Below the pieces are notes generated by a model, which worked only from the letters and a program-made list of their open reading frames with translations, was not told the origin of the DNA and did no database searches. The translations under genes were made by a program, and so were the position numbers. From Candidatus Magasanikiibacteriota bacterium (GTDB taxonomy: Bacteria; Patescibacteriota; Patescibacteriia; Magasanikbacterales; UBA922): a stretch of DNA of 64,000 bases. How positions within the stretch are numbered: position 1 is the first letter of the stretch; each line of letters begins with the position of its first letter. The stretch covers positions 26,604 to 90,603 of the forward strand of contig DOMK01000001.1 in assembly GCA_003510435.1 (NCBI GenBank). The letters run 5' to 3'. Positions 4,298-48,729 of this stretch are shown here, one piece after another.

Positions 4298-5343
4298 AAT
4301 CCTCTCTTAATTTTTCTAAATGATTCAACTAACCAATTTACCCAATACTTTTTTGTAATTGGTAAATCTTGACAATGCAATAAATCTTTTTGATAACCAC
4401 CAAAGCCCTTTTTAAAATGAGTAATACCAGCAAATGGATGATTTTTTGGTGAGTTTTCTGGGGCAATTCCCCAAAAATTATAATATTTTATATTTCTTTT
4501 CCTGGCTTCTTTAATTGCTTCCCATTGCAATAAATATGAGCTTGGTAAGCGTTTATCAAGCCCCAGCGAAGCTCCATGGCGATAAGCCGCCATATTGCCG
4601 TAAAACATGACTATAGCAGAAGAATCTAATCTACCATCTGGTAAGTAAGCATTAAGAACTAAAGCTTCATTGTTTGATGAAAAAACAGAAAATTCATTGG
4701 TAATATATTTTTTGGAAAAACGATGAAAATTATGACGCTTTGCTGTCTCGTCATGAAGTTTATTAAAATTTTCCAGGTCAACCACTTGGTTTTTAATTTC
4801 AATGGTTACATTTTCTTTTTCACAGCGGTGAATTAGATTGCGGTGATTTTTGTTCATGTCAGCTAAGAGTTGATCTTCAGTCTTGTCTAATTCCAAAAGC
4901 CAAGTAGTTTCGGCCAAGACGTGCATTGGGGCTGGTCTAAAGCCTAATTTTTTAAATAGATTTTTATTATCCTCTGTCTCATCTAAAAATGGACTGATTC
5001 TAATAAAATCATATTTATTTTTTTGCGCAAAAGTTTTTAAATAATTAACAAAAATATCTAAAAATTTGTTTATCTCCCCAACTGGGCCATAAGGTAGATA
5101 AAGAAAATTACCTCTTTTGGCATGGGTACTAATAACTAATGAGCCACCAATTAATTTATTATCTTCATAAACACCAAAAATCCAGGATTGTTCAGACATT
5201 GATTCATAAAATTTTCCATAATGAAAAGATTGAACAAATAATGCCATGCCCCGCACCGAGTTTTGCTCTGGTGTTGGGGTATTCACTTGTGATAAAACAA
5301 AATTTTCCCAGTCACTTTTATTCTCAATGATCTTGACTTCCAT
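4294..5343 (-). CDS. FemAB-family peptidoglycan interpeptide aminoacyltransferase-like protein
   Basis: 349 aa; duplicated GNAT-like halves (GSLVISTHAKRGNFLYLPYGPV ... NAYLPDGRLDSSAIVMFYGNMAAYRHGASL), typical of FemXAB/lipid II aminoacyltransferases. Confidence 0.6.
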   Translation of the reverse strand: MEVKIIENKSDWENFVLSQVNTPTPEQNSVRGMALFVQSFHYGKFYESMSEQSWIFGVYEDNKLIGGSLVISTHAKRGNFLYLPYGPVGEINKFLDIFVNYLKTFAQKNKYDFIRISPFLDETEDNKNLFKKLGFRPAPMHVLAETTWLLELDKTEDQLLADMNKNHRNLIHRCEKENVTIEIKNQVVDLENFNKLHDETAKRHNFHRFSKKYITNEFSVFSSNNEALVLNAYLPDGRLDSSAIVMFYGNMAAYRHGASLGLDKRLPSSYLLQWEAIKEARKRNIKYYNFWGIAPENSPKNHPFAGITHFKKGFGGYQKDLLHCQDLPITKKYWVNWLVESFRKIKRGF

Positions 5344-27960: not shown

Positions 27961-27992
27961 ATTTATTTATATTTTAGCACAATTTTTGAGAC

Positions 27993-28021
27993 TTGACAAA
28001 GGTGGTAGTATATGATATTTT
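27993..28021 (+). promoter_or_regulatory. sigma70-type promoter TTGACA-N17-TGaTATTTT (extended -10) reading into the GC-rich island
   Basis: ttgaca at 27993-27998, 17-nt spacer, TG at 28013-14, tatttt at 28016-28021. Confidence 0.45.
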
Positions 28022-28029
28022 ATACAGTT

Positions 28030-28260
28030 CAGTATTATAGGCGAGAGGTCTGTAAGTTTTTGCTTATAGGCCCTTCTCCTAATCGTCGGGAGAGGCGTGC
28101 AAGAGCACGTATAAGTCAGCTGAATGCCGGGGTGTCGGCATGGAAAAACATCCCAAGAGGGGTGGCTGACAGGGATTGTACCCAGACGATAGTCCAAGAG
28201 GACTAGGGCATTGTACTAGTCGTTTAGTCAACGACTGGTGTCTCCAAGCGGAGATATACA
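28030..28260 (+). other. GC-rich ~230-nt leader with multiple predicted stem-loops (possible cis-regulatory RNA or ncRNA) upstream of the island ORF
   Basis: Local hairpins such as cccttctcctaatcgtcgggagagg, gccggggtgtcggc, agtcaacgact; composition jumps from very AT-rich to GC-rich exactly here. Confidence 0.3.
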
Positions 28261-29196
28261 ATGAATTCCACGACTAAACTGCGGAGAATGACGATGAAGC
28301 GTTGCTTGTCAGAGCAGTTCAACATCCTGATGGATGAATTGGCCTCCATTGGTATGGCTGGCCTCTTCTGCCTCATCATCGGGATGGCCAAGAGCAAGTC
28401 GCAATTGGCCAGGTTCCACAACGAACTCAAGCCCAACCAGCGTCTCGTGCGTGGAGATTATATCATGCTCGAGGACTGGTGGGAGGCCTCGTATGAAAAG
28501 GCCAGAGGAGAACTCACTGAAGTGGCTAGAGAGAAGTTGCAAGAAGTGATTCTTCTCTCCTATCGCAACGAGCACAGTGCTGCGAATCTGAGCCACTACT
28601 ACGAACGGAAAATTAACGAGGAACGTTGGAGTAGAGAACATCCGAAAACCCCGCTTGCAACTTCTAGCGTCAACCTCGTGCTCTCTTGCCCCGAACGTGA
28701 CGGGCATGGCTACCACCACTTTCGCGCGTTCATGTTTAATGTAGAATTTGAAGTCAGTTGTACTTTTCTGGATAGCACACTACTAGTTCATATGTGCATC
28801 AAGAGAAATAAACTGACCGAAAATCTCGTACACAGGATTCTGACGTCCAAGCTGGTTAATGCCAGTTTCGGACATACAGGAGTGTATGTAAATAGTGGTG
28901 ATGAGCTGACCTTCAGGTTCGATCTCGGGGCTGATATAGGTAGGCGCTTGAAGGAGATGATCTCGGCATTTGATAAATCCGAGGGCGCTCACCGACGTGC
29001 TGACGTAGTGGCCATGGACACTTTTGCACATGAGGTTGGAAGAAACCTCATTGACGTCTGTGACCTTGAGCTGGATGGGCTCTACGCTGTAGTGCTGTTT
29101 GTCGCAGATGACCCACGTTGTCTGCAGTCAACGGTATTCGAGGATGGCGCACCGCACGCCAGGCATCGGGTCTGGTGCCATCGCACCAACGCCTAA
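28261..29196 (+). CDS. hypothetical protein (311 aa) encoded on a compositionally foreign GC-rich island; no recognisable domain
   Basis: Long ORF with GC-rich codon usage unlike all neighbours. Lies between a consensus promoter and two intrinsic terminators. Opposite-strand ORFs here look like GC-composition artefacts. Confidence 0.55.
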   Translation: MNSTTKLRRMTMKRCLSEQFNILMDELASIGMAGLFCLIIGMAKSKSQLARFHNELKPNQRLVRGDYIMLEDWWEASYEKARGELTEVAREKLQEVILLSYRNEHSAANLSHYYERKINEERWSREHPKTPLATSSVNLVLSCPERDGHGYHHFRAFMFNVEFEVSCTFLDSTLLVHMCIKRNKLTENLVHRILTSKLVNASFGHTGVYVNSGDELTFRFDLGADIGRRLKEMISAFDKSEGAHRRADVVAMDTFAHEVGRNLIDVCDLELDGLYAVVLFVADDPRCLQSTVFEDGAPHARHRVWCHRTNA

Positions 29197-29235
29197 GACC
29201 ACAGAAGACTTTACAACTCGGAGGATGTGAAGTGA

Positions 29236-29306
29236 CACGGGCGACCTATGACACCCCACAGGTCGCCCGTTCAAAAAAACAGATATTGTTAAATGTCTGT
29301 TTTTTA
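29236..29306 (+). terminator. tandem intrinsic terminators (ACGGGCGACC...GGTCGCCCGT then AAAAAAACAGA...TCTGTTTTTT)
   Basis: Two perfect hairpins, the second followed by a T-run, immediately 3' of the island ORF. Confidence 0.65.
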
Positions 29307-29328: not shown

Positions 29329-29751
29329 TTATTTCAAAGTAATAATATAAGCTCCACCAGCAATCATGGCTGCACCCATTACACTGCGCCAAGTGAGGCC
29401 CTCACCCAAAAACAAAGCCGCGAGAATAATAACAAAAATTATACTAAGACGGTCAATGGCGACCACTTTTCCAGCCATACCATATTTAAGCGCAAAAAAA
29501 TAAAATAACCAGGATAGTGCGCCGGCAATACCAGATAAAGTAATTAATAACCAATCTTTACCATTTAAAGAATGAAAATTAAAACCATTAAACTTTTTTA
29601 AAGTTAGAGCGACCAGAAATAGAAAAATTGCCATGATAATTGAGCGAATCGTAGTTGCCAGTGTAGAATCAATTGTCTTGAGACCAAGTTTGCCAAAGAT
29701 TGCTACGGCTGCGGCAAAGATGGCAGATAAAAATGCATATAATAACCACAT
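29329..29751 (-). CDS. small 4-TM EamA/DMT-superfamily half-transporter-like protein
   Basis: 140 aa, four hydrophobic helices with an EamA-like pattern (AIFGKLGLK ... IIFVIILAALFLGE). Confidence 0.5.
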   Translation of the reverse strand: MWLLYAFLSAIFAAAVAIFGKLGLKTIDSTLATTIRSIIMAIFLFLVALTLKKFNGFNFHSLNGKDWLLITLSGIAGALSWLFYFFALKYGMAGKVVAIDRLSIIFVIILAALFLGEGLTWRSVMGAAMIAGGAYIITLK

Positions 29752-29866
29752 AAAGCATTGATTTAAACTGATTTAAACTGAATATATATTAACATTAATC
29801 AGATAAAAAGAAAACAGGCTTGTACAGAGCTCTGCTTTCTTTTGTGAGAGTGAAAAAATGTGTTAG

Positions 29867-29926
29867 TTAGTTACAACCGCAACCACCGCCACAACCTCCA
29901 CCGTCAGTTAAATTTTTATTCTTCAT
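29867..29926 (-). CDS. 19-aa Gly/Cys-rich peptide MKNKNLTDGGGCGGGCGCN (short paralog of the two downstream Cys-rich peptides)
   Basis: Found by hand translation; shares the C-terminal G-C-G-C-N motif with peptide 3. Preceded by a consensus promoter and AAGGAGGA. Confidence 0.35.
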   Translation of the reverse strand: MKNKNLTDGGGCGGGCGCN

Positions 29927-29962
29927 GTTTTGTATGCTTAAGAATTAATCCTCCTTATTTAT

Positions 29963-29992
29963 ATAATACATATTTAGTATGATATGTGTCAA
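29963..29992 (-). promoter_or_regulatory. sigma70-type promoter TTGACA-N18-TATTAT upstream of peptide 1
   Basis: Minus-strand read: cTTGACAcatatcatactaaatatgTATTATataaataAGGAGGAtt...ATG. Confidence 0.5.
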
Positions 29993-30047
29993 GGGGTGGA
30001 TAACTAGGGATAAAAAAACCAGCCTTTTCAGACTGATTTTTTTGATT

Positions 30048-30194
30048 TTATTCTTCGCTATCTTCTCCAAGTTTTTCGCCGTCCACTTCTTCTTCACTTT
30101 CACTTTCATAACATTCACAACAATCTCCACAACCACCACACTTGGGGCAAAGCTCGTCCTCGCTAAAGGGCATATCACATTTACGACATTCCAT
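30048..30194 (-). CDS. 48-aa acidic cysteine-rich peptide MECRKCDMPFSEDELCPKCGGCGDCCECYESESEEEVDGEKLGEDSEE (metallothionein-like)
   Basis: Hand-translated; 9 Cys in CxxC/CC/CxC arrangements, then a poly-acidic tail. Below the ORF-track size cutoff. Confidence 0.5.
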   Translation of the reverse strand: MECRKCDMPFSEDELCPKCGGCGDCCECYESESEEEVDGEKLGEDSEE

Positions 30195-30259
30195 ACTTAT
30201 AATTAATTAGATAGGGTGTCACGCTAGGGACGTGACAGGATATACAATTAAAATTTAAT

Positions 30260-30409
30260 TATTGGCAATTGCAACCACAACCACCATCACCACAACAAGA
30301 TTCTTCTTTCCCTTCTTCTTTACATTCGCAACAAGCTTTACAGCTAGTTTCTTCATCACAGCAAGTGTTTTCTTCGTTTAATTCTACTTCACATTTTGCA
30401 CAATTCATA
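30260..30409 (-). CDS. 49-aa acidic cysteine-rich peptide MNCAKCEVELNEENTCCDEETSCKACCECKEEGKEESCCGDGGCGCNCQ (metallothionein-like)
   Basis: Hand-translated; 14 Cys. The C-terminal GCGCNC is reminiscent of the bacterial SmtA C-terminus (GC..GCNC). Own perfect promoter. Confidence 0.55.
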
Positions 30410-30437
30410 TTTTTTTAGATTAATAATTATAGATTAT

Positions 30438-30466
30438 ATTATACATTTTTTATGTGGATTTGTCAA
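30438..30466 (-). promoter_or_regulatory. consensus sigma70 promoter TTGACA-N17-TATAAT upstream of peptide 3
   Basis: Minus-strand read: TTGACAaatccacataaaaaatgTATAATataatctataattattaatctaaaaaaatATG. Confidence 0.55.
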
Positions 30467-30470
30467 TCAA

Positions 30471-31775
30471 CTATATTCCCTCTCCTAACTCGCTTGGTTC
30501 AACTCTTGTTTGTTTGAAAATTTCTTTTTCAAATAGAATTATTCCTAATACACTGACCAAAACAATAGCCAAAAGAACAGAAGCTGATAAACTTTCTGTA
30601 AAAACATTATTAAAAATAGCAATGGCTAAAAATGCTAAGCCAATCTCCCCTCTTATGGTGGTGGCTCGAGCAATCAATATGCCTTCTCTTTTATTTTTAT
30701 AAAAGAAACGAATAAAACATTTACCAACAAAAGCCAAGATAACAAATATAAGAGCGTAGAGCCAAGTATGATAATTCAATAAAGATTCTCTACCCAACAT
30801 TGTTCCAAGACTAACCAAAAATCCACCCACAAAAATATGCATGTAGCCTTCAATTTTTGTCCAAACTTCGCTTTTTATTTTATGATCCATTTTGGATAGT
30901 ATTAAGCCAATACCAAATGCTCCCAAAATTGGTTCTAGACCAATCGCGGAAGTCAAGGCACAAGCCAAAATTAAAGCGCCAAAAAAGAAACGAGTATAAG
31001 ATCCTGTGCTAGTTGTCACATAATGTTGGTCAAGATATTTTGCAGCTTTGTCTATAAAATTGAATGACCACATAATAAAAGCAACAAATAAGAACCCAAT
31101 AACTGATAATGCTATTAAGAAAATATCACCAAATTCCGCACCACCATATAAAAATTTTCCTAAAATTGTCAAAAGCAACATTCCAATAATATTACTCATC
31201 AGGGCTATACTTAAAATTTTATCACCAACTTCGGTATGGAGTTTGTTGCCAGCTTTGAGAGCGGAAACTGAAAGCCCGAGCGATGTGGCCGTAAAAATAC
31301 CACCAAGAAAAACTGCTGGTAGCCAATTGAGATGTAATAAATAATAGCCAACTAAAGAAAATAAAGCCAATTGAACTAATGTGGCAGACACAGTGGATAA
31401 TATGTTAGAACCAAAATTCTTTTTTAGAATTGATAAATCAAAATATAATCCAGCTTCAAATAATATAAAAAATATACCAGCTAAGCGGACAATCTCTACT
31501 CCTTGAGCATAGGGATCAATCGCGCCAAACAAGGCTGGACCAATAATTATTCCTAAAAATATTTTACCAGCCATTGGTGCAACATTGAAGACCTTGGCTA
31601 GACGAGCACCAAAAGAGGCAAAAATTGCTAAGAATGAAATATCTAGTAGAATTGGTAAAATACTACTGATTTCGTAGTTATCATTTGCCAATAAAACTGG
31701 TCTTAGATAATACAAAATAAAAATTGCAATGGCTGATTCTATAATTACCAAGAATAAAGTTTTAAATTTATTCAT
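30471..31775 (-). CDS. monovalent cation:proton antiporter (CPA/Na+-H+ exchanger family)
   Basis: 434 aa, 11-13 TM helices, Na_H_Exchanger-like repeats (GIIIGPALFG ... LILSKMDHK). Confidence 0.7.
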   Translation of the reverse strand: MNKFKTLFLVIIESAIAIFILYYLRPVLLANDNYEISSILPILLDISFLAIFASFGARLAKVFNVAPMAGKIFLGIIIGPALFGAIDPYAQGVEIVRLAGIFFILFEAGLYFDLSILKKNFGSNILSTVSATLVQLALFSLVGYYLLHLNWLPAVFLGGIFTATSLGLSVSALKAGNKLHTEVGDKILSIALMSNIIGMLLLTILGKFLYGGAEFGDIFLIALSVIGFLFVAFIMWSFNFIDKAAKYLDQHYVTTSTGSYTRFFFGALILACALTSAIGLEPILGAFGIGLILSKMDHKIKSEVWTKIEGYMHIFVGGFLVSLGTMLGRESLLNYHTWLYALIFVILAFVGKCFIRFFYKNKREGILIARATTIRGEIGLAFLAIAIFNNVFTESLSASVLLAIVLVSVLGIILFEKEIFKQTRVEPSELGEGI

Positions 31776-45418: not shown

Positions 45419-45724
45419 TTATAATTTAGTAAGTTCATCAATGTTTAAATCTAGTTCTTTTGTATTTGCGTCAGAAAAATCAGTCGGATTCTCAATTTCT
45501 GTCATCACATTTTCTGGAGTAATATTATGAATAACTATATCATCTACTCGGATATTAGGTGATCTATGACAATGTCCAGTACAAGTACAAATATCTAAAC
45601 AGATTTTATCATTACATTCACCTTTTTGCAAACCAGTCTCCATTTCAATTTTGTGCAATATTGCATCCGAACCTTTGGCAGAACAAGTTATACCTTTGCA
45701 GATTTTTATTTGTTTCATAATCAT
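45419..45724 (-). CDS. thioredoxin-like [2Fe-2S] ferredoxin (NuoE-like fold)
   Basis: ICKGITCSAKGSDAI ... CLDICTCTGHC spacing. Start moved to an internal Met because the upstream 39 codons are encoded by repeat 45721-45835. Confidence 0.5.
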   Translation of the reverse strand: MIMKQIKICKGITCSAKGSDAILHKIEMETGLQKGECNDKICLDICTCTGHCHRSPNIRVDDIVIHNITPENVMTEIENPTDFSDANTKELDLNIDELTKL

Positions 45725-45835
45725 TCCGAGTGTAGCGAGGAATCCCTTTTCCTTGGGGTTAACATCGGTTTTATTTAATGCTTTTTTTAATGAATCAAAA
45801 AGGGATCCCTCACCCTTCGGGATTCGGGATGACGG
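45721..45835. repeat. family-B palindromic element (diverged copy)
   Basis: tcattccgagtgtagcgaggaatcccttttccttggggttaacatcgg...aaaagggatccctcacccttcgggattcgggatga. Confidence 0.6.
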
Positions 45836-45837
45836 TG

Positions 45838-46524
45838 TCAACCATAATACTTCTCCATATAAAATCTAATCAATTCTTCAATTTCTGGAATGGCTTCGGG
45901 ATCACCCACACCAACTTTTAATTTCTTTTGCACATCTTCCAAATTTTGCGCGCCTTCTAGTACCGCTTCTTCTATATCATGATCAGTAATATTTAGAACT
46001 TTATCAATAATTTTACTTCCAGCTGTCACAATTCTACCGTGTTGTCCAGTTTTACGAAAATAATCATTAACTGCGGCTTGTAAAGCTTTGTCACCCAAGA
46101 CTGAACAGTGTACTTTTCTATCTGGTAAGCCACCAAGCCGAGCTAAAATATCTTGTGGTTTTATTTTTAAAGCGTCTTCGAGTTTCATTCCACCCTTTTC
46201 AACGATCATTTCTGATAAAACCGAAGTGGAGGCAATGGCTGAACCACAACCAAAAGTGCGCCAGCGACAGTCCTTTATTTTTTCACTTTTTTCATCTACT
46301 AAAATCCACAGTACCATTTCATCACCACAAGCTGGCGAACCTACGCGTCCCATTCCATCATATTTAAACTTTTCTTCCTCGCCCTGTTTCATAAAATTTC
46401 GCGGATTAAAAAAATGATCCTTAACAATGTCAGAATACAACCAACCAGAACCATCATTACTGCGGATATCTACCGGTTTAGTTAAATTCTTAGTTTTGGT
46501 TACTTTTTTAATTATTTTTTTCAT
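45838..46524 (-). CDS. NifU/IscU-family Fe-S cluster assembly scaffold protein
   Basis: GSPACGDEMVLWI ... FGCGSAIASTS (three scaffold cysteines) plus a C-terminal extension. Confidence 0.75.
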   Translation of the reverse strand: MKKIIKKVTKTKNLTKPVDIRSNDGSGWLYSDIVKDHFFNPRNFMKQGEEEKFKYDGMGRVGSPACGDEMVLWILVDEKSEKIKDCRWRTFGCGSAIASTSVLSEMIVEKGGMKLEDALKIKPQDILARLGGLPDRKVHCSVLGDKALQAAVNDYFRKTGQHGRIVTAGSKIIDKVLNITDHDIEEAVLEGAQNLEDVQKKLKVGVGDPEAIPEIEELIRFYMEKYYG

Positions 46525-46616
46525 AGACTATTGGATACTAAATACGAAATTTACAAAAATACGAACTGAGGTGCAATAATTTTTGTAATTTTGTACTTTT
46601 TGTATTTCGTATCCTA

Positions 46617-47858
46617 TTATTTATACTTAGCATGTTTTTTATTTCCCATTTGTACAGGACTAATTTCCCTTAACTTTTCAACTATGCCCGGCAAATATTT
46701 CATGACATAATCAATATCAGCTTTGGTATTGCAATGCCCAAGAGTAAAACGCAAGCTACCATGAGCATATTCATAAGGTAAACCAAGCGCAGTGAGAACA
46801 TGTGATGGTTCTAGTGAGGTAGAAGTACAAGCTGAACCAGTGGAACAGCAAATGCCATAAGCATCTAAATATAATAACATAGCTTCACCTTCTACATCCA
46901 TAAAAGTGACATTCAAATTATTTGGCAGACGTGAGTTTTCATTTCCCAAAGAGGCGCCGTTCAATTTTATTTTATCAATTTTTTTACTAATTTGGTCGTA
47001 AAAATAATCACGCAATTCAACTAAACGCATGTTTTCATCTTGTCTATTTTCCTGAGCCAATTCTAACGCTTTGGTAAAGCCGACAATTCCAGCTAGATTC
47101 TCTGTACCACTGCGTAAATTCATTTCCTGACCACCACCATAGATAAGTGGCACGATATTCACTCCACGTCGCTTGTAGAGCATTCCTACGCCTTTGGGGC
47201 CATATATTTTGCTAGCATTGAGTGTCAATAGATCCACATGGAGCTTTTCCACGTCCAATTCTAAAACTCCGCCAGCTTGGCAAGCATCTGTATGAAAAAA
47301 TGGATATATAGAATTATTTTCTTTGCGATATTTTAAAATTTCTCTTCCAATATCAGCGATTGGTTCTACCGTACCAATTTCATTATTGGCATACATAATA
47401 GAAATCAAAATTGTGTCAGGACGAATCTCAGCTCGAACTTTTTTTGGTGAAATAAAACCCCGTGAATCTGGTTCTAAATATGTCACAACAAAACTTTCTT
47501 TTTCTAAGTGTTCAATTGGATTTAAAACCGCATGATGTTCAATCTTCGTGGTAATAATATGTTTACCAAAATTTGCGTGTTTTCTAGTCACACCGAATAT
47601 TGCCAAATTATCTGACTCACTACCACCACCAGTAAAAATAATATTGTCTGGTAAAGCATGAATAATCTCTGCGACTTTTCTGTGACAATCATTCAGTTCG
47701 CCATTGGCAACCCGACCTGCTTCATAAAGACTACTCGGGTTACCAAAAATCTTACCATAATATGGCTTCATGACTTTTTCTACTCGTTCATCAACGTAAG
47801 TCGTAGCCGCGTGGTCTAGATAAACAAATTTTTTGGTTTTTGGTTTTGGGGGGAACAT
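46617..47858 (-). CDS. cysteine desulfurase (NifS/IscS/SufS-type class V aminotransferase)
   Basis: YLDHAATT ... TGGGSESDNLAI ... SASKIYGPKGVG ... SSTGSACTS. Start moved to MFPPKPK; the track ORF's extra 48 codons are repeat-derived and overlap the GIY-YIG gene. Confidence 0.85.
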   Translation of the reverse strand: MFPPKPKTKKFVYLDHAATTYVDERVEKVMKPYYGKIFGNPSSLYEAGRVANGELNDCHRKVAEIIHALPDNIIFTGGGSESDNLAIFGVTRKHANFGKHIITTKIEHHAVLNPIEHLEKESFVVTYLEPDSRGFISPKKVRAEIRPDTILISIMYANNEIGTVEPIADIGREILKYRKENNSIYPFFHTDACQAGGVLELDVEKLHVDLLTLNASKIYGPKGVGMLYKRRGVNIVPLIYGGGQEMNLRSGTENLAGIVGFTKALELAQENRQDENMRLVELRDYFYDQISKKIDKIKLNGASLGNENSRLPNNLNVTFMDVEGEAMLLYLDAYGICCSTGSACTSTSLEPSHVLTALGLPYEYAHGSLRFTLGHCNTKADIDYVMKYLPGIVEKLREISPVQMGNKKHAKYK

Positions 47859-47929
47859 AGTATAAATTAATCTCGAACGAAAAACAGAAAGCGAAGCGAA
47901 CTGTTTTGAGGAGAGATCTTTCTTACCTC

Positions 47930-48274
47930 TTAATTCTCTACGCGAGTAAAACCCTGCATAATATAAAAATTTTTCTTTACTTGTAAATATAAATCTATCC
48001 AATCTGGATTATCTTTTTCAATTAATTTGATCTTCTTCTCTTTTCTATATTTTTTAATTTGACTTTCTCTTTTTAGAGATTCTTCTTTTGTATAATAACT
48101 TTCAAAATAGACTAACTTATTAGTTTTATATTTTTTAGAAAAAGCATTATCGTATGTACCTGTTTTGTGTTGTCTACCTCTTTTTATAAGACAATCTGTA
48201 TAACCTACATACAATACTTTCGTTATACTTGCCATTATATAGACGTAGTAATTTCTCCTCCTTAAATTGTTCAT
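47930..48274 (-). CDS. stand-alone GIY-YIG nuclease-domain protein (UPF0213-like)
   Basis: YYVYIMASITKVLYVGYTDCLIKRGRQHKTG ... YFESYYTKEESLKRESQIKKY = GIY-YIG core. Confidence 0.7.
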   Translation of the reverse strand: MNNLRRRNYYVYIMASITKVLYVGYTDCLIKRGRQHKTGTYDNAFSKKYKTNKLVYFESYYTKEESLKRESQIKKYRKEKKIKLIEKDNPDWIDLYLQVKKNFYIMQGFTRVEN

Positions 48275-48327
48275 AGTGAGATTAGTTTTAAGAAAGATCT
48301 CTCGTCGCCCTTCGGGCTCACTCGAGA

Positions 48328-48729
48328 TTAATTTATCACTTCACTCAACTTCAATTCACCTAAATACTTAACTAATTTTTCATTAACCATTTTAAAAACT
48401 TTTTGAGAGTCACATTTTCCTTCTTTGGTGCAATGACAGCCTTTTTTTAGACAATTGGTGACAGCATACTCCCCTTCCAGTGCTTCGACAATATTTTTGA
48501 TAGTTAGATTTTTAAATTCATTATTTAGTTGATATCCACCCTGTGCGCCCTTTACTGATTTTACAATCTTGGCTTCACGAAGTTTTTTGGCAATTCTTTG
48601 TAAAAATAAAAAAGATATTTTTGAATCTTTTGAAAAATTTCGTAGACTTAATAATTCCCCACTCTTTGATTTTGTTAGAGCAGAGATGAGTTGGATACCA
48701 TAGTCTACTTCTTTGGTGAATTGCAACAT
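48328..48729 (-). CDS. Rrf2-family transcriptional regulator (IscR/SufR-like)
   Basis: wHTH DYGIQLISALTKSKSGELLSLRNFSKDSKISFLFLQRIAKKLREAKIVKSVKGAQGGYQL plus CxxxxxxC...C cluster ligands. Confidence 0.75.
   Translation of the reverse strand: MLQFTKEVDYGIQLISALTKSKSGELLSLRNFSKDSKISFLFLQRIAKKLREAKIVKSVKGAQGGYQLNNEFKNLTIKNIVEALEGEYAVTNCLKKGCHCTKEGKCDSQKVFKMVNEKLVKYLGELKLSEVIN

What the first reader, a model, noticed from the sequence alone, without database searches (positions are those of the whole stretch)
29867..30466. Three tandem genes for tiny acidic Cys-rich peptides, two with their own consensus sigma70 promoters: candidate novel metallothionein-like family
Hand translation of the minus strand gives MKNKNLTDGGGCGGGCGCN (19 aa), MECRKCDMPFSEDELCPKCGGCGDCCECYESESEEEVDGEKLGEDSEE (48 aa) and MNCAKCEVELNEENTCCDEETSCKACCECKEEGKEESCCGDGGCGCNCQ (49 aa). 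They share CGGCG and a C-terminal GCGCN(C) that recalls the C-terminus of bacterial SmtA-type metallothionein. Their strongly acidic composition is unlike known metallothioneins. Peptide 3 has a perfect TTGACA-N17-TATAAT promoter and peptide 1 has TTGACA-N18-TATTAT plus AAGGAGGA. A palindrome (TGTCACG..CGTGACA) separates peptides 3 and 2. The array lies between a cation:proton antiporter and a small EamA-type exporter, next to the GC-rich island. This suggests a metal-buffering or metal-handling locus, or alternatively RiPP-like precursors lacking a nearby maturase. None are in the ORF track (below size cutoff).
Basis: partly seen in the sequence, partly recalled or inferred. Interest (0 to 1): 0.75.

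Follow-up and report, generated by a model that had tools for sequence, protein, structure and literature searches.

The report
Conserved cysteine-rich microprotein genes in Magasanikbacteria
Three tiny cysteine-rich genes in this uncultivated groundwater bacterium are real and kept by selection in its relatives; two belong to a previously undescribed family of small acidic proteins that probably bind metals, and the third is a separate 9-19 codon gene whose role is unknown.

Summary
The window comes from a Candidatus Magasanikbacteria (CPR) genome.

Peptides 3 (type A) and 2 (type B) are real protein-coding genes:
- Homologues sit in the same syntenic slot (ATPase operon, CPA2 antiporter, [A][B][c], UvrD-like helicase) in about 25 related loci.
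- Only the annotated frame is free of stops in all homologues.
- dN/dS is 0.08-0.27.
- All 22 type B sequences fit C-x2-C-x9-C-x2-C-x2-C-x2-C-C-x-C-[YF] followed by an acidic tail.
- Type A has 10-13 Cys (26%), almost no aromatic residues, and CC, CxC and CxxC motifs.
- A and B are paralogues (hhalign probability 92%, E 8e-7).

Neither type matches Pfam, NCBIfam, PHROGs, PADLOC or any solved structure. Weak hits are all zinc-ribbon modules. The 64-kb window holds no RiPP maturase.

Peptide 1 is not a homologue. It is a separate single-gene unit: a TTATCCACA box, a promoter, a 9-19 codon Gly/Cys ORF and a terminator, conserved in 7 loci.

Best reading: a new, lineage-restricted family of metal-thiolate-binding microproteins. 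Type A is metallothionein-like; type B resembles a two-site zinc finger. Metal binding is inferred, not shown.

The parts
30438..30466 (-). Promoter of the A-B operon, TTGACA-17-TATAAT, with the -10 box about 29 nt upstream of the ATG
   Evidence: 12/12 match. In 9 of 20 related loci the first peptide gene has a >=10/12 promoter match, against 4% of background windows. Where the match is that strong the -10 usually lies 28-34 nt from the ATG.
30259..30408 (-). Type A gene (peptide 3): 49 aa, 13 Cys, metallothionein-like acidic microprotein
   Evidence: 17 homologues were found, plus one more in L057. Only this frame is stop-free. dN/dS is 0.13-0.27. Indels relative to L008 are in frame.
30217..30237 (-). 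Intercistronic hairpin TGTCACG-TCCCTAG-CGTGACA between A and B, with no T-run after it
   Evidence: It is conserved in L008 with a C-to-T change that keeps a G-U pair. It is absent in other lineages, where A and B lie 0-26 nt apart.
30048..30194 (-). Type B gene (peptide 2): 48 aa, 8 invariant Cys, disordered acidic tail
   Evidence: 22 of 22 homologues fit C-x2-C-x9-C-x2-C-x2-C-x2-C-C-x-C-[YF]. All 6 substitutions in the first 32 codons relative to L008 are synonymous. dN/dS is 0.08-0.20. AF2 pLDDT is about 83 for residues 1-30 and about 50 for the tail.
30012..30035 (-). Terminator of the A-B operon: CAGTCT-GAAA-AGGCTG followed by G and T7
   Evidence: Read. In L008 the stem changes to CAGCTT/AAGCTG, which keeps the pairing. 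The consensus scan missed it because the stem contains a G-T pair and only 3 G-C pairs.
29995..30003 (-). TTATCCACC box (8/9 match to the DnaA-box consensus TTATCCACA), abutting the -35 of the peptide 1 promoter
   Evidence: The same box (TTATCCACA, or TTGTCCACA in L053) lies 1-8 nt upstream of the -35 in all 7 loci that carry the unit.
29963..29992 (-). Promoter of the c unit (peptide 1), TTGACA-18-TATTAT
   Evidence: 11/12. The stretch TTGAC-N-ATATCATAC...TATTAT is conserved at the DNA level in L008, L012, L017 and L053, with a related promoter in L056.
29867..29926 (-). c-type micro-ORF (peptide 1): 19 codons, MKNKNLTDGGGCGGGCGCN
   Evidence: Counterparts of 9-17 codons, all ending in a Gly/Cys tail, occur in 6 other loci. 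Gly and Cys codons vary at the third position only.
29805..29843 (-). Terminator hairpin of the c unit: 12-15 bp stem, 7-nt loop CUGUACA, then a T-run
   Evidence: Six loci fold at -14 to -19 kcal/mol, with a conserved loop CU[GAC][UC]A[ACU]A and covarying stems. A seventh example is in L056.

Best explanation
The locus holds two transcription units.

Unit 1 is a bicistronic operon (promoter 30466..30438, type A gene, type B gene, terminator 30035..30012). It encodes two paralogous subfamilies of a family of small (41-59 aa), strongly acidic, cysteine-rich cytoplasmic proteins found so far only in Magasanikbacteria. Both begin with a zinc-ribbon-like pair of knuckles (C-x2-C, a 9-residue hairpin, then C-C or C-x2-C) that runs straight into a C-x2-C-C-x-C cluster.
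- Type B stops at exactly 8 Cys, enough for two tetrathiolate sites, and carries a disordered Asp/Glu tail.
- Type A adds a Gly/Cys tail (such as CCGDGGCGCN), reaching 10-13 Cys with almost no aromatic residues, which is the composition of a metallothionein.

The most likely mechanism is that the thiolates coordinate metal ions (Zn2+ most likely; Fe or Cu+ not excluded). Type A would act as a higher-capacity buffer or store. Type B would be a folded two-site metal protein whose acidic tail contacts a partner.

Unit 2 (peptide 1) is unrelated by descent. It is a single-gene unit made of a TTATCCACA (DnaA-box-like) operator, a strong promoter, a 9-19 codon ORF ending in a Gly/Cys tail, and an intrinsic terminator. 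It most likely yields a translated Gly/Cys micropeptide and may be controlled by a protein that binds the TTATCCACA box.

Shown: gene reality, purifying selection, paralogy, operon anatomy, lineage restriction, and absence from known families.
Inferred: metal binding, which metal, and the physiological role.
For: Conservation and synteny: type A and/or B occur in the same slot in about 25 loci from Magasanikbacteria-like genomes.

Coding signal: there are zero stops in the annotated frame, against 8-107 summed stops in each of the other five frames. dN/dS is 0.08-0.27 with dS near saturation. The 6 substitutions in the first 32 codons of type B relative to L008 are all synonymous, and the type A indels are 3 and 9 nt.

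Cysteine pattern: the 8 Cys of type B are invariant in 22 of 22 sequences. Type A averages 26.4% Cys and 0.12 aromatic residues per protein.

Paralogy: hhalign of A3 against A4 gives probability 91.6% and E 8e-7 over 34 columns.

Fold: AF2 gives pLDDT about 83 for the Cys domain of type B and a disordered tail. All weak sequence and fold matches are Zn-binding modules: zinc ribbons, RanBP2 ZnF, Nop10, FYVE/PHD/RBR fingers and rubredoxin.

Expression signals: a consensus promoter in the window and strong matches in 9 of 20 loci, against 4% of background windows. The terminators keep their pairing through substitutions.

c unit: 7 loci share the box, promoter, micro-ORF and hairpin.
Against: - No metal-binding experiment exists, and no metal transporter, metal sensor or chaperone lies next to the genes.
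- The strongly acidic composition is atypical for metallothioneins.
- Type A folds with low confidence (pLDDT 57), and type B has no significant structural neighbour. The fold assignment therefore rests on motifs.
- The conserved synteny may reflect only the closeness of the genomes, so it does not indicate a function.
- No transcriptome or proteome data were available, so expression is inferred from promoter and terminator signals and from selection.
- For the c unit, an sRNA function cannot be excluded.
Confidence: 0.6

Rival explanations
1. Types A and B are structural zinc-finger microproteins that act as adaptors or regulators rather than metal buffers. The metal only folds the domain. 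The conserved surface (VELNEEN in A; AVLLEDEV in B) and the acidic tail bind a partner protein or mimic nucleic acid. This is how the haloarchaeal one-domain zinc-finger micro-proteins and Brz are thought to work.
For: Non-Cys residues are conserved in the hairpin between the knuckles, which is unusual for metallothioneins. Type B has a conserved aromatic residue after the last Cys and exactly 8 Cys in all 22 sequences. AF2 gives a fairly confident compact domain plus a disordered acidic tail. Small zinc-finger proteins with regulatory phenotypes are documented in archaea (PMC6562870, PMC2253796; found).
Against: Type A has the composition of a metallothionein (26% Cys, no aromatics, variable Cys-rich tail). 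That is more thiolate than a structural site needs. No partner gene co-varies with the pair, and genomes can carry A alone or B alone.
Confidence: 0.25
2. They are small iron or iron-sulfur redox proteins (rubredoxin-, desulforedoxin- or ferredoxin-like electron carriers). This would fit their small size, acidity and position beside bioenergetic operons.
For: Like ferredoxins and rubredoxins (general knowledge), they are about 50 aa and very acidic. The type A N-terminus has a C-x2-C...C-C arrangement that recalls desulforedoxin (from memory, not tested). Type B has C-x2-C-x2-C-x2-C. Weak sub-threshold PDB hits include 4Fe-4S proteins and rubredoxin. The genes follow the ATPase operon, and in L008 they follow a complex-I-like or hydrogenase-like operon.
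Against: There is no Pfam hit to Fer4, rubredoxin or desulforedoxin families even at E<=10. The Cys spacing does not fit CxxCxxCxxxCP. 8 Cys within 26 residues is too compact for a 2x[4Fe-4S] ferredoxin fold. The association with redox complexes is not conserved.
Confidence: 0.1
3. They are precursors of ribosomally made, post-translationally modified peptides (RiPPs) whose maturase lies elsewhere in the genome.
For: Gly/Cys-rich tails (GGCGCN, GGGCC) resemble the cores of azole-containing peptides such as microcin B17 (from memory). The tiny c peptides could be read as a short leader plus a core.
Against: The conserved Cys pattern starts at residue 3, so there is no leader. Selection acts on the whole N-terminal domain. 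No radical SAM, YcaO, LanB/C/M or DUF692 protein is found in the 64-kb window or in the annotated flanks of relatives. The c peptides are only 9-19 aa in total.
Confidence: 0.04
4. Peptide 1 only: the micro-ORF is a Cys/Gly-sensing leader peptide that controls read-through of its terminator into the downstream gene, or the unit is a non-coding sRNA and the ORF is incidental.
For: Polycysteine short ORFs act as cysteine-responsive attenuators in mycobacteria (bioRxiv 10.1101/834739). A terminator follows the ORF within 35-60 nt. The hairpin loop is conserved and the stem covaries. The ORF can be as short as 9 codons.
Against: The downstream gene differs among loci: EamA (window and L053), GNAT, UvrD-like helicase, ABC transporter, a convergent HU-like gene. 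In L008 and L012 the downstream gene has its own extended -10 promoter. No antiterminator pairing was evident on inspection. Gly and Cys codons vary at third positions while the amino acids are kept, which points to selection on the peptide.
Confidence: 0.15
5. The mini-ORFs are chance open frames in an intergenic region, or the real gene is the overlapping 77-aa frame (29945..30178).
For: The ORFs are short, the composition is low in complexity, and BLASTP finds no alignment between peptides 2 and 3.
Against: The frames are conserved across about 25 loci with low dN/dS. The 77-aa frame has stops in L008 and most other relatives. A database entry in that alternative frame (P0139) is a frameshifted copy of type B.
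Confidence: 0.01

Closest known systems
Bacterial metallothioneins (SmtA/BmtA family, Pfam PF02069; also MymT and Pseudomonas PmtA)
   Same: Type A is about 45 aa with 26% Cys arranged as CC, CxC and CxxC, has almost no aromatic residues, and ends in a G-C-x-C-N motif reminiscent of the SmtA C-terminus (GCNCHG, recalled from memory).
   Different: No detectable sequence relationship. There are no conserved His ligands. Type A is strongly acidic rather than neutral or basic. It has a conserved zinc-ribbon-like N-terminal hairpin with conserved non-Cys residues. It is paired with an 8-Cys paralogue.
One-domain zinc-finger micro-proteins of haloarchaea (C(P)XCG type, e.g. HVO_2753, Brz)
   Same: Under 60 aa, acidic, built around CxxC/CPxCG knuckles; stand-alone genes that are often missed in annotation (PMC6562870, PMC2253796).
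   Different: Those carry 4 Cys (or 2 x 4 in two separate fingers). Here 8-13 Cys are packed into a contiguous cluster with CC-x-C. The lineage is a different domain of life, and no homology was detected.
FmdB-family zinc-ribbon proteins (TIGR02605, CxxC_CxxC_SSSS)
   Same: An N-terminal CxxC...CxxC ribbon starting at the initiator Met, followed by a low-complexity tail that in some members is Gly/Cys-rich. This family description is recalled from memory.
   Different: The spacing between knuckles is 9 residues here rather than 17. There is no NCBIfam hit at E<=1. The extra CC-x-C cluster is absent from FmdB.
Polycysteine leader short ORFs of mycobacteria (cysteine-responsive attenuators)
   Same: The c-type micro-ORF is very short and ends in Cys codons (bioRxiv 10.1101/834739).
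   Different: The c unit has its own terminator and a variable downstream gene, has a 5' UTR of about 30 nt, is not linked to cysteine metabolism genes, and carries a conserved TTATCCACA box.

Membership tests
Prokaryotic metallothionein SmtA/BmtA (Pfam PF02069 Metallothio_Pro) | Match to the family profile | tested here: not met
   No Pfam hit at E<=1 for the window peptides, or at E<=10 for 12 type A and 14 type B members. No metallothionein chain appears in the PDB profile search at E<=10.
Prokaryotic metallothionein SmtA/BmtA (Pfam PF02069 Metallothio_Pro) | Conserved His ligands alongside Cys in a Zn4Cys9His2 cluster | tested here: not met
   Type A has 0-2 His and none is conserved. Type B has 0-1 His.
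Metallothionein in the operational sense (small, Cys-rich, metal-thiolate clusters) | Low molecular weight, Cys content around 25-30% in CC/CxC/CxxC motifs, few or no aromatic residues | tested here: met
   Type A: 42-52 aa, mean 26.4% Cys, mean 0.12 aromatic residues. Type B meets this only in part: 16% Cys, 1-4 aromatic residues, and a conserved Y/F.
Metallothionein in the operational sense (small, Cys-rich, metal-thiolate clusters) | High stoichiometric metal content bound through thiolates | not testable with these tools
   Needs purified protein and ICP-MS, native MS or spectroscopy.
Zinc ribbon (e.g. Pfam Zn_ribbon_9 PF02591, DZR_2 PF18912) | Two CxxC knuckles flanking a beta-hairpin | tested here: met
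   C-x2-C-x9-C-x2-C is invariant in type B (22 of 22). The AF2 model shows short beta bridges at the knuckles with pLDDT about 83.
Zinc ribbon (e.g. Pfam Zn_ribbon_9 PF02591, DZR_2 PF18912) | Profile match above the curated threshold | tested here: not met
   Only sub-threshold hits: Zn_ribbon_9 best E 0.0054 in 2 of 14 members, DZR_2 E 0.0082 in 1 of 14, zf_UBZ E 0.15 in 7 of 14. None for type A.
FmdB family (TIGR02605) | Two CxxC motifs 17 residues apart, starting at the N-terminus, with a profile match | tested here: not met
   The spacing is 9 residues, and there is no NCBIfam hit at E<=1.
RiPP precursor peptide | Leader peptide preceding the modified core | tested here: not met
   The conserved Cys pattern begins at residue 3 in both types.
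RiPP precursor peptide | Maturase (radical SAM, YcaO, Lan, MNIO) encoded nearby | tested here: not met
   None among the Pfam-annotated genes of the 64-kb window or of the relatives' loci. The rest of the genome could not be examined.
Polycysteine leader-ORF attenuator (peptide 1 only) | Short ORF with consecutive Cys codons | tested here: met
   CC or CCC ends the ORF in L017, L053 and L054, and C-x-C or C-x2-C ends it in the window, L008 and L056. L012 carries its CC internally and ends GGGCG.
Polycysteine leader-ORF attenuator (peptide 1 only) | Sits in an operon with, and upstream of, a fixed set of regulated (cysteine-related) genes | tested here: not met
   The downstream gene varies: EamA, GNAT, UvrD-like, ABC transporter, or a convergent gene. 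A terminator and separate promoters intervene.
Rubredoxin / desulforedoxin / ferredoxin | Profile match or canonical Cys spacing (CxxCG...CPxCG about 29 residues apart; CxxCxxCxxxCP) | tested here: not met
   No Pfam hit at E<=10. The spacing differs.

The most novel reading that the evidence does not exclude
A, B and c together form a gene-encoded thiol and metal buffering system peculiar to Magasanikbacteria. It would be a functional stand-in for low-molecular-weight thiols or classical metallothioneins in an organism with a minimal metabolism. Its smallest member, a 9-19 residue Gly/Cys peptide, would be transcribed under DnaA control through the invariant TTATCCACA box, which would couple thiol and metal homeostasis to the replication state.
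Probability: 0.07. Interest if true: 0.8.

Novelty: new variant of a known kind. Interest (0 to 1): 0.45.

Why it matters
CPR (Patescibacteria) genomes are small, and a large share of their genes have no known function. Very short genes are the least examined part of them.

This locus provides a clean, comparatively validated example: two paralogous cysteine-rich microprotein subfamilies and one ultra-short ORF that current databases list only as unnamed hypothetical proteins or do not list at all. If the proteins bind metal as their composition suggests, they would add a new bacterial family to the very short list of prokaryotic metallothionein-like proteins. They would also give a handle on metal or redox handling in an uncultivated lineage. 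At under 50 aa the peptides can be made synthetically, so the prediction is cheap to test.

The c unit, a DnaA-box-like operator in front of a 9-19 codon gene, is a compact and testable candidate for a DnaA-regulated micro-gene.

Tried and rejected
- Exact-sequence look-ups returned only 100% identical DNA from the same strain in several metagenomes, so they carried no comparative information.
- The word-indexed homologue search with peptide 3 alone found only itself.
- The exhaustive HMMER search with the 2-sequence profile found only 4 proteins at E<=0.001, because the query is so short.
- BLASTP between peptides 2 and 3 found nothing. Only the profile-profile comparison showed the paralogy.
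- The first profiles (12 type A and 9 type B sequences) were too diverse for back-translated pattern scans. A narrower 6-sequence type A profile worked.
- The viral-contig scan with the type A profile found no relative. A 43-aa type B sequence from a related locus was too short for that tool.
- Rfam found nothing at gathering thresholds in the whole window.
- PHROGs and PADLOC gave no hits for the peptides or for the 311-aa ORF of the GC-rich island.
- I tested whether the TTATCCACA box is shared by the A-B promoter, which would point to one regulon. It is not: 4 of 23 loci reach 8/9 or better, against 7.5% of background windows. The box is also not enriched in the window, so there is no sign of an origin of replication.
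- I rejected a LysW-type carrier-protein reading for type B, because the C-terminal residues are not conserved.
- I considered a functional link to the CPA2 antiporter. The pair persists in L057/L058, where CPA2 is absent and a V/A-type ATPase replaces the F-type, so the link may be plain synteny.
Full report
**1. The observation**

- 30408..30259, 49 aa, 13 Cys.
- 30194..30048, 48 aa, 8 Cys.
- 29926..29867, 19 aa, 4 Cys.

The promoter scan returns TTGACA-17-TATAAT at 30466..30438 (12/12) and TTGACA-18-TATTAT at 29992..29963 (11/12). The palindrome TGTCACG-N7-CGTGACA lies at 30237..30217. The flanking genes are a CPA2-type Na_H_Exchanger protein (30471..31775) and a 140-aa EamA protein (29329..29751). 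The GC-rich island at 28-29.3 kb has 49% GC against about 33% elsewhere. No other ORF in the window has 8 or more Cys.

Two details need correcting. The literal motif CGGCG is present only in peptide 2. AAGGAGGA lies 23 nt upstream of the peptide 1 ATG, in a genome where only 3 of 57 gene starts have any Shine-Dalgarno-like sequence.

**2. Source organism**

The antiporter is 100% identical to a protein annotated in a Candidatus Magasanikbacteria MAG. Eight metagenome contigs carry the peptide 3 gene with 100% identical DNA. They are the same strain and carry no comparative information.

**3. Conservation in relatives**

The closest different genome is L008 (GCA_049287025.1; antiporter 89% identical). 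It has all three ORFs in the same order directly after the antiporter.

I fetched 40 genome loci through an antiporter profile, 6 metagenome loci through a type A profile, and 5 more loci (L057-L061) through exact look-ups of three type B database proteins. Scanning these for Cys-rich small ORFs gave:
- 17 type A (peptide 3-like) sequences, plus one more read in L057.
- 22 type B (peptide 2-like) sequences in total, once the 15 significant database proteins from a type B profile search are pooled in.

They occur where the block atpD-atpC-CPA2-[A][B][c]-(EamA)-UvrD-like helicase is present, which is the Magasanikbacteria-type arrangement. They are absent beside the CPA2 genes of other Patescibacteria lineages. 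Genomes may carry A and B, A alone or B alone. In L057/L058 a V/A-type ATPase replaces the F-type and CPA2 is missing, yet A and B are still there, before an ABC transporter and the UvrD-like gene.

**4. Are they coding?**

- Over the gene spans of all homologues the annotated frame has no stops. The other five frames have 8-107 (type A) and 3-57 (type B) stops in total.
- Between the window and L008, the first 32 codons of type B differ by 6 substitutions, all synonymous. Type A differs by in-frame indels of 3 and 9 nt.
- Nei-Gojobori dN/dS is 0.08-0.27 where dS is not saturated.

Both are therefore protein-coding genes under purifying selection.

**5. Anatomy of the proteins**

All 22 type B sequences fit C-x2-C-x9-C-x2-C-x2-C-x2-C-C-x-C-[YF]. 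Each has exactly 8 Cys, a conserved E-[DG]-E before the third Cys, and a variable Asp/Glu-rich tail (33% acidic residues overall).

Type A has C-x2-C, a conserved hairpin (V-E-[LI]-[NT]-[ED]-E-[NT]), C-C, (C)C-x2-C-C-x-C, and a variable tail with 3-5 more Cys that often ends G-C-G-C-N. It has 10-13 Cys (mean 26.4%), 0.12 aromatic residues per protein and 0-2 unconserved His.

A profile-profile comparison shows the two types are homologous over their first 34 columns (probability 91.6%, E 8e-7). They are paralogous subfamilies.

AlphaFold2 with a 14-sequence alignment gives pLDDT about 83 for residues 1-30 of type B and about 50 for the tail. Type A, with only 3 admissible sequences, gives pLDDT 57.

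**6. Comparison with known families**

- Pfam: nothing at E<=1 for the window peptides, and nothing at E<=10 for any of 12 type A members. Type B has only sub-threshold zinc-ribbon families: Zn_ribbon_9, DZR_2, zf_UBZ, L32p and HypA.
- NCBIfam, PHROGs and PADLOC: nothing.
- Profiles against all PDB sequences: nothing significant. The weak hits are zinc knuckles and LIM domains, and no metallothionein chain is listed.
- Literature: full-text searches found no description of this family. One preprint notes in passing that the C-terminal motif of Drosophila MtnF resembles a 'Candidatus Magasanikbacteria' protein. It gives no accession (10.1101/2020.06.25.172213), so I cannot say whether that is this family.

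**7. Transcription units**

Types A and B share one promoter and one terminator. In the window they are 64 nt apart, with a conserved hairpin between them that lacks a T-run. In other lineages they are 0-26 nt apart. Relatives have a strong promoter match (>=10/12) upstream of the first gene in 9 of 20 loci, against 4% of random windows, usually with the -10 box 28-34 nt from the ATG. The terminator after B keeps its pairing through substitutions in L008.

**8. Peptide 1 is a different element**

In seven loci (window, L008, L012, L017, L053, L054, L056) there is a unit with these parts:
- TTATCCACA (TTATCCACC in the window, TTGTCCACA in L053) 1-8 nt upstream of the -35.
- A strongly conserved promoter, TTGAC(A/T)-ATATCATAC...TATTAT. 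The promoter is less clear in L054.
- A 5' UTR of about 25-30 nt.
- An ORF of 9-19 codons: MKNKNLTDGGGCGGGCGCN, MGNKRINSKLDGGACGC, MLRTKHTCSCCGGGCG, MKEKCNRGGGCC, MNNTNLHCGGGCC, MTKTMQGGGCCC, MAGGGCGAC.
- A 12-15 bp hairpin with loop CU[GAC][UC]A[ACU]A and a covarying stem, followed in most loci by a T-run.

Gly and Cys codons vary at third positions while the residues are kept, which favours translation. The downstream gene varies among loci (EamA in the window and L053, GNAT, UvrD-like, ABC transporter, a convergent HU-like gene), and in L008 and L012 it has its own extended -10 promoter. A leader-peptide attenuator of a fixed operon is therefore unlikely.

The TTATCCACA box matches the DnaA-box consensus (established knowledge). 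It is not enriched in the window and is not a regular feature of the A-B promoter.

**9. What it most likely is**

Shown: the genes are real, selected, paralogous, lineage-restricted and outside known families.

Inferred: the invariant cysteines are metal ligands. Three things support this.
- The N-terminal C-x2-C-hairpin-C-x2-C is the signature of zinc ribbons.
- Every weak sequence or fold match is a metal module.
- Type A has the composition that defines metallothioneins.

I rate gene reality at about 0.95, metal binding at about 0.7, and a buffering or storage role (rather than a structural-zinc adaptor role) at about 0.35-0.4.

Rivals:
- A zinc-finger adaptor or regulator, by analogy with haloarchaeal micro-proteins (PMC6562870).
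- A small Fe or Fe-S redox protein.
- A RiPP precursor. This is unlikely: there is no leader, and no maturase among the Pfam-annotated genes of the whole window.
- Chance ORFs, which refute.

**10. Context does not indicate a metal locus**

CPA2 proteins move monovalent cations. EamA is a drug/metabolite transporter family and is one of several alternative inserts at this position. The window's Fe-S assembly genes (Rrf2, cysteine desulfurase, NifU, 2Fe-2S ferredoxin; 45.4-48.7 kb) are 15 kb away. The conserved position after the ATPase operon may be inherited synteny only.

**11. Verdict**

This is a new family of a known kind (small Cys-rich, probably metal-binding proteins) plus an unrelated, unexplained micro-gene. 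Interest is moderate: the genes are solidly real and previously undescribed, and cheap experiments could test the prediction, but function remains inferred and the kind of protein is familiar.

Noticed in passing
window 29995-30003 (minus); L012 8216, L017 3514, L053 5703, L054 about 7540, L056 about 893: A TTATCCACA box, which matches the DnaA-box consensus, abuts the -35 of the peptide 1 (c unit) promoter in all 7 loci that carry the unit. It is not a regular feature of the A-B promoter and is not enriched in the window, so it looks like a single operator rather than an origin of replication.
   Followed up: partly
window 28000-29300 (ORF 28261-29196, plus strand): A GC-rich island (49% GC against about 33%) holds a 311-aa ORF on the opposite strand with no Pfam, NCBIfam, PHROGs or PADLOC match. 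The slot between the c terminator and the UvrD-like gene is variable among relatives: EamA, GNAT plus DUF4238, ABC transporter, CmpB-like. It behaves as an insertion hotspot.
   Followed up: partly
window, all gene starts; e.g. 27961-27985 upstream of the UvrD-like gene: Only 3 of 57 gene starts have a Shine-Dalgarno-like sequence. Upstream regions are A/T-rich. Some genes have an extended -10 (TGCTAAAAT) only about 10 nt before the ATG, which suggests very short leaders.
   Followed up: partly
L057/L058 1-3737: In one lineage a V/A-type ATPase (ATP-synt_ab_Xtn, ATP-synt_D) occupies the position of the F-type ATPase and there is no CPA2 gene, yet the A-B pair and the downstream UvrD-like gene are retained. 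This looks like displacement of the ATPase operon in place.
   Followed up: no
L022 3500-6889: The contig is a mirror image around about position 5195 (atpD-atpC-CPA2-B | B-CPA2-atpC-atpD) with identical type B copies on both strands. This is most likely an assembly artefact rather than a real inverted duplication.
   Followed up: no
L054 5935-7464: A 509-aa protein with many repeated Cys-containing modules (C-x-G-x-C type) and an N-terminal hydrophobic segment lies between the type A gene and the c unit of that locus.
   Followed up: no
window 45419-48729: An Fe-S cluster assembly gene set lies 15 kb from the peptides: an Rrf2-family regulator, a class V aminotransferase (cysteine desulfurase-like), a NifU-like scaffold and a thioredoxin-like 2Fe-2S ferredoxin.
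   Followed up: no
L054 2601-3020; L059 1331-1750; L061 3147-3572: A Pro_CA_2 (carbonic-anhydrase-like) gene sits next to the CPA2 antiporter in L059 and L061 but is absent from the window. The 139-aa ORF at the corresponding position in L054 was not scanned against Pfam; I take it for the same family from its size, position and sequence only.
   Followed up: no
protein P0139: A database entry begins like type B (MFCPYCDAVLLEDEIC) and then runs into the +1 frame (SNVKVVLIVV...). It is a frameshifted copy or a sequencing error, and it shows how the rival frame can be mis-called.
   Followed up: no
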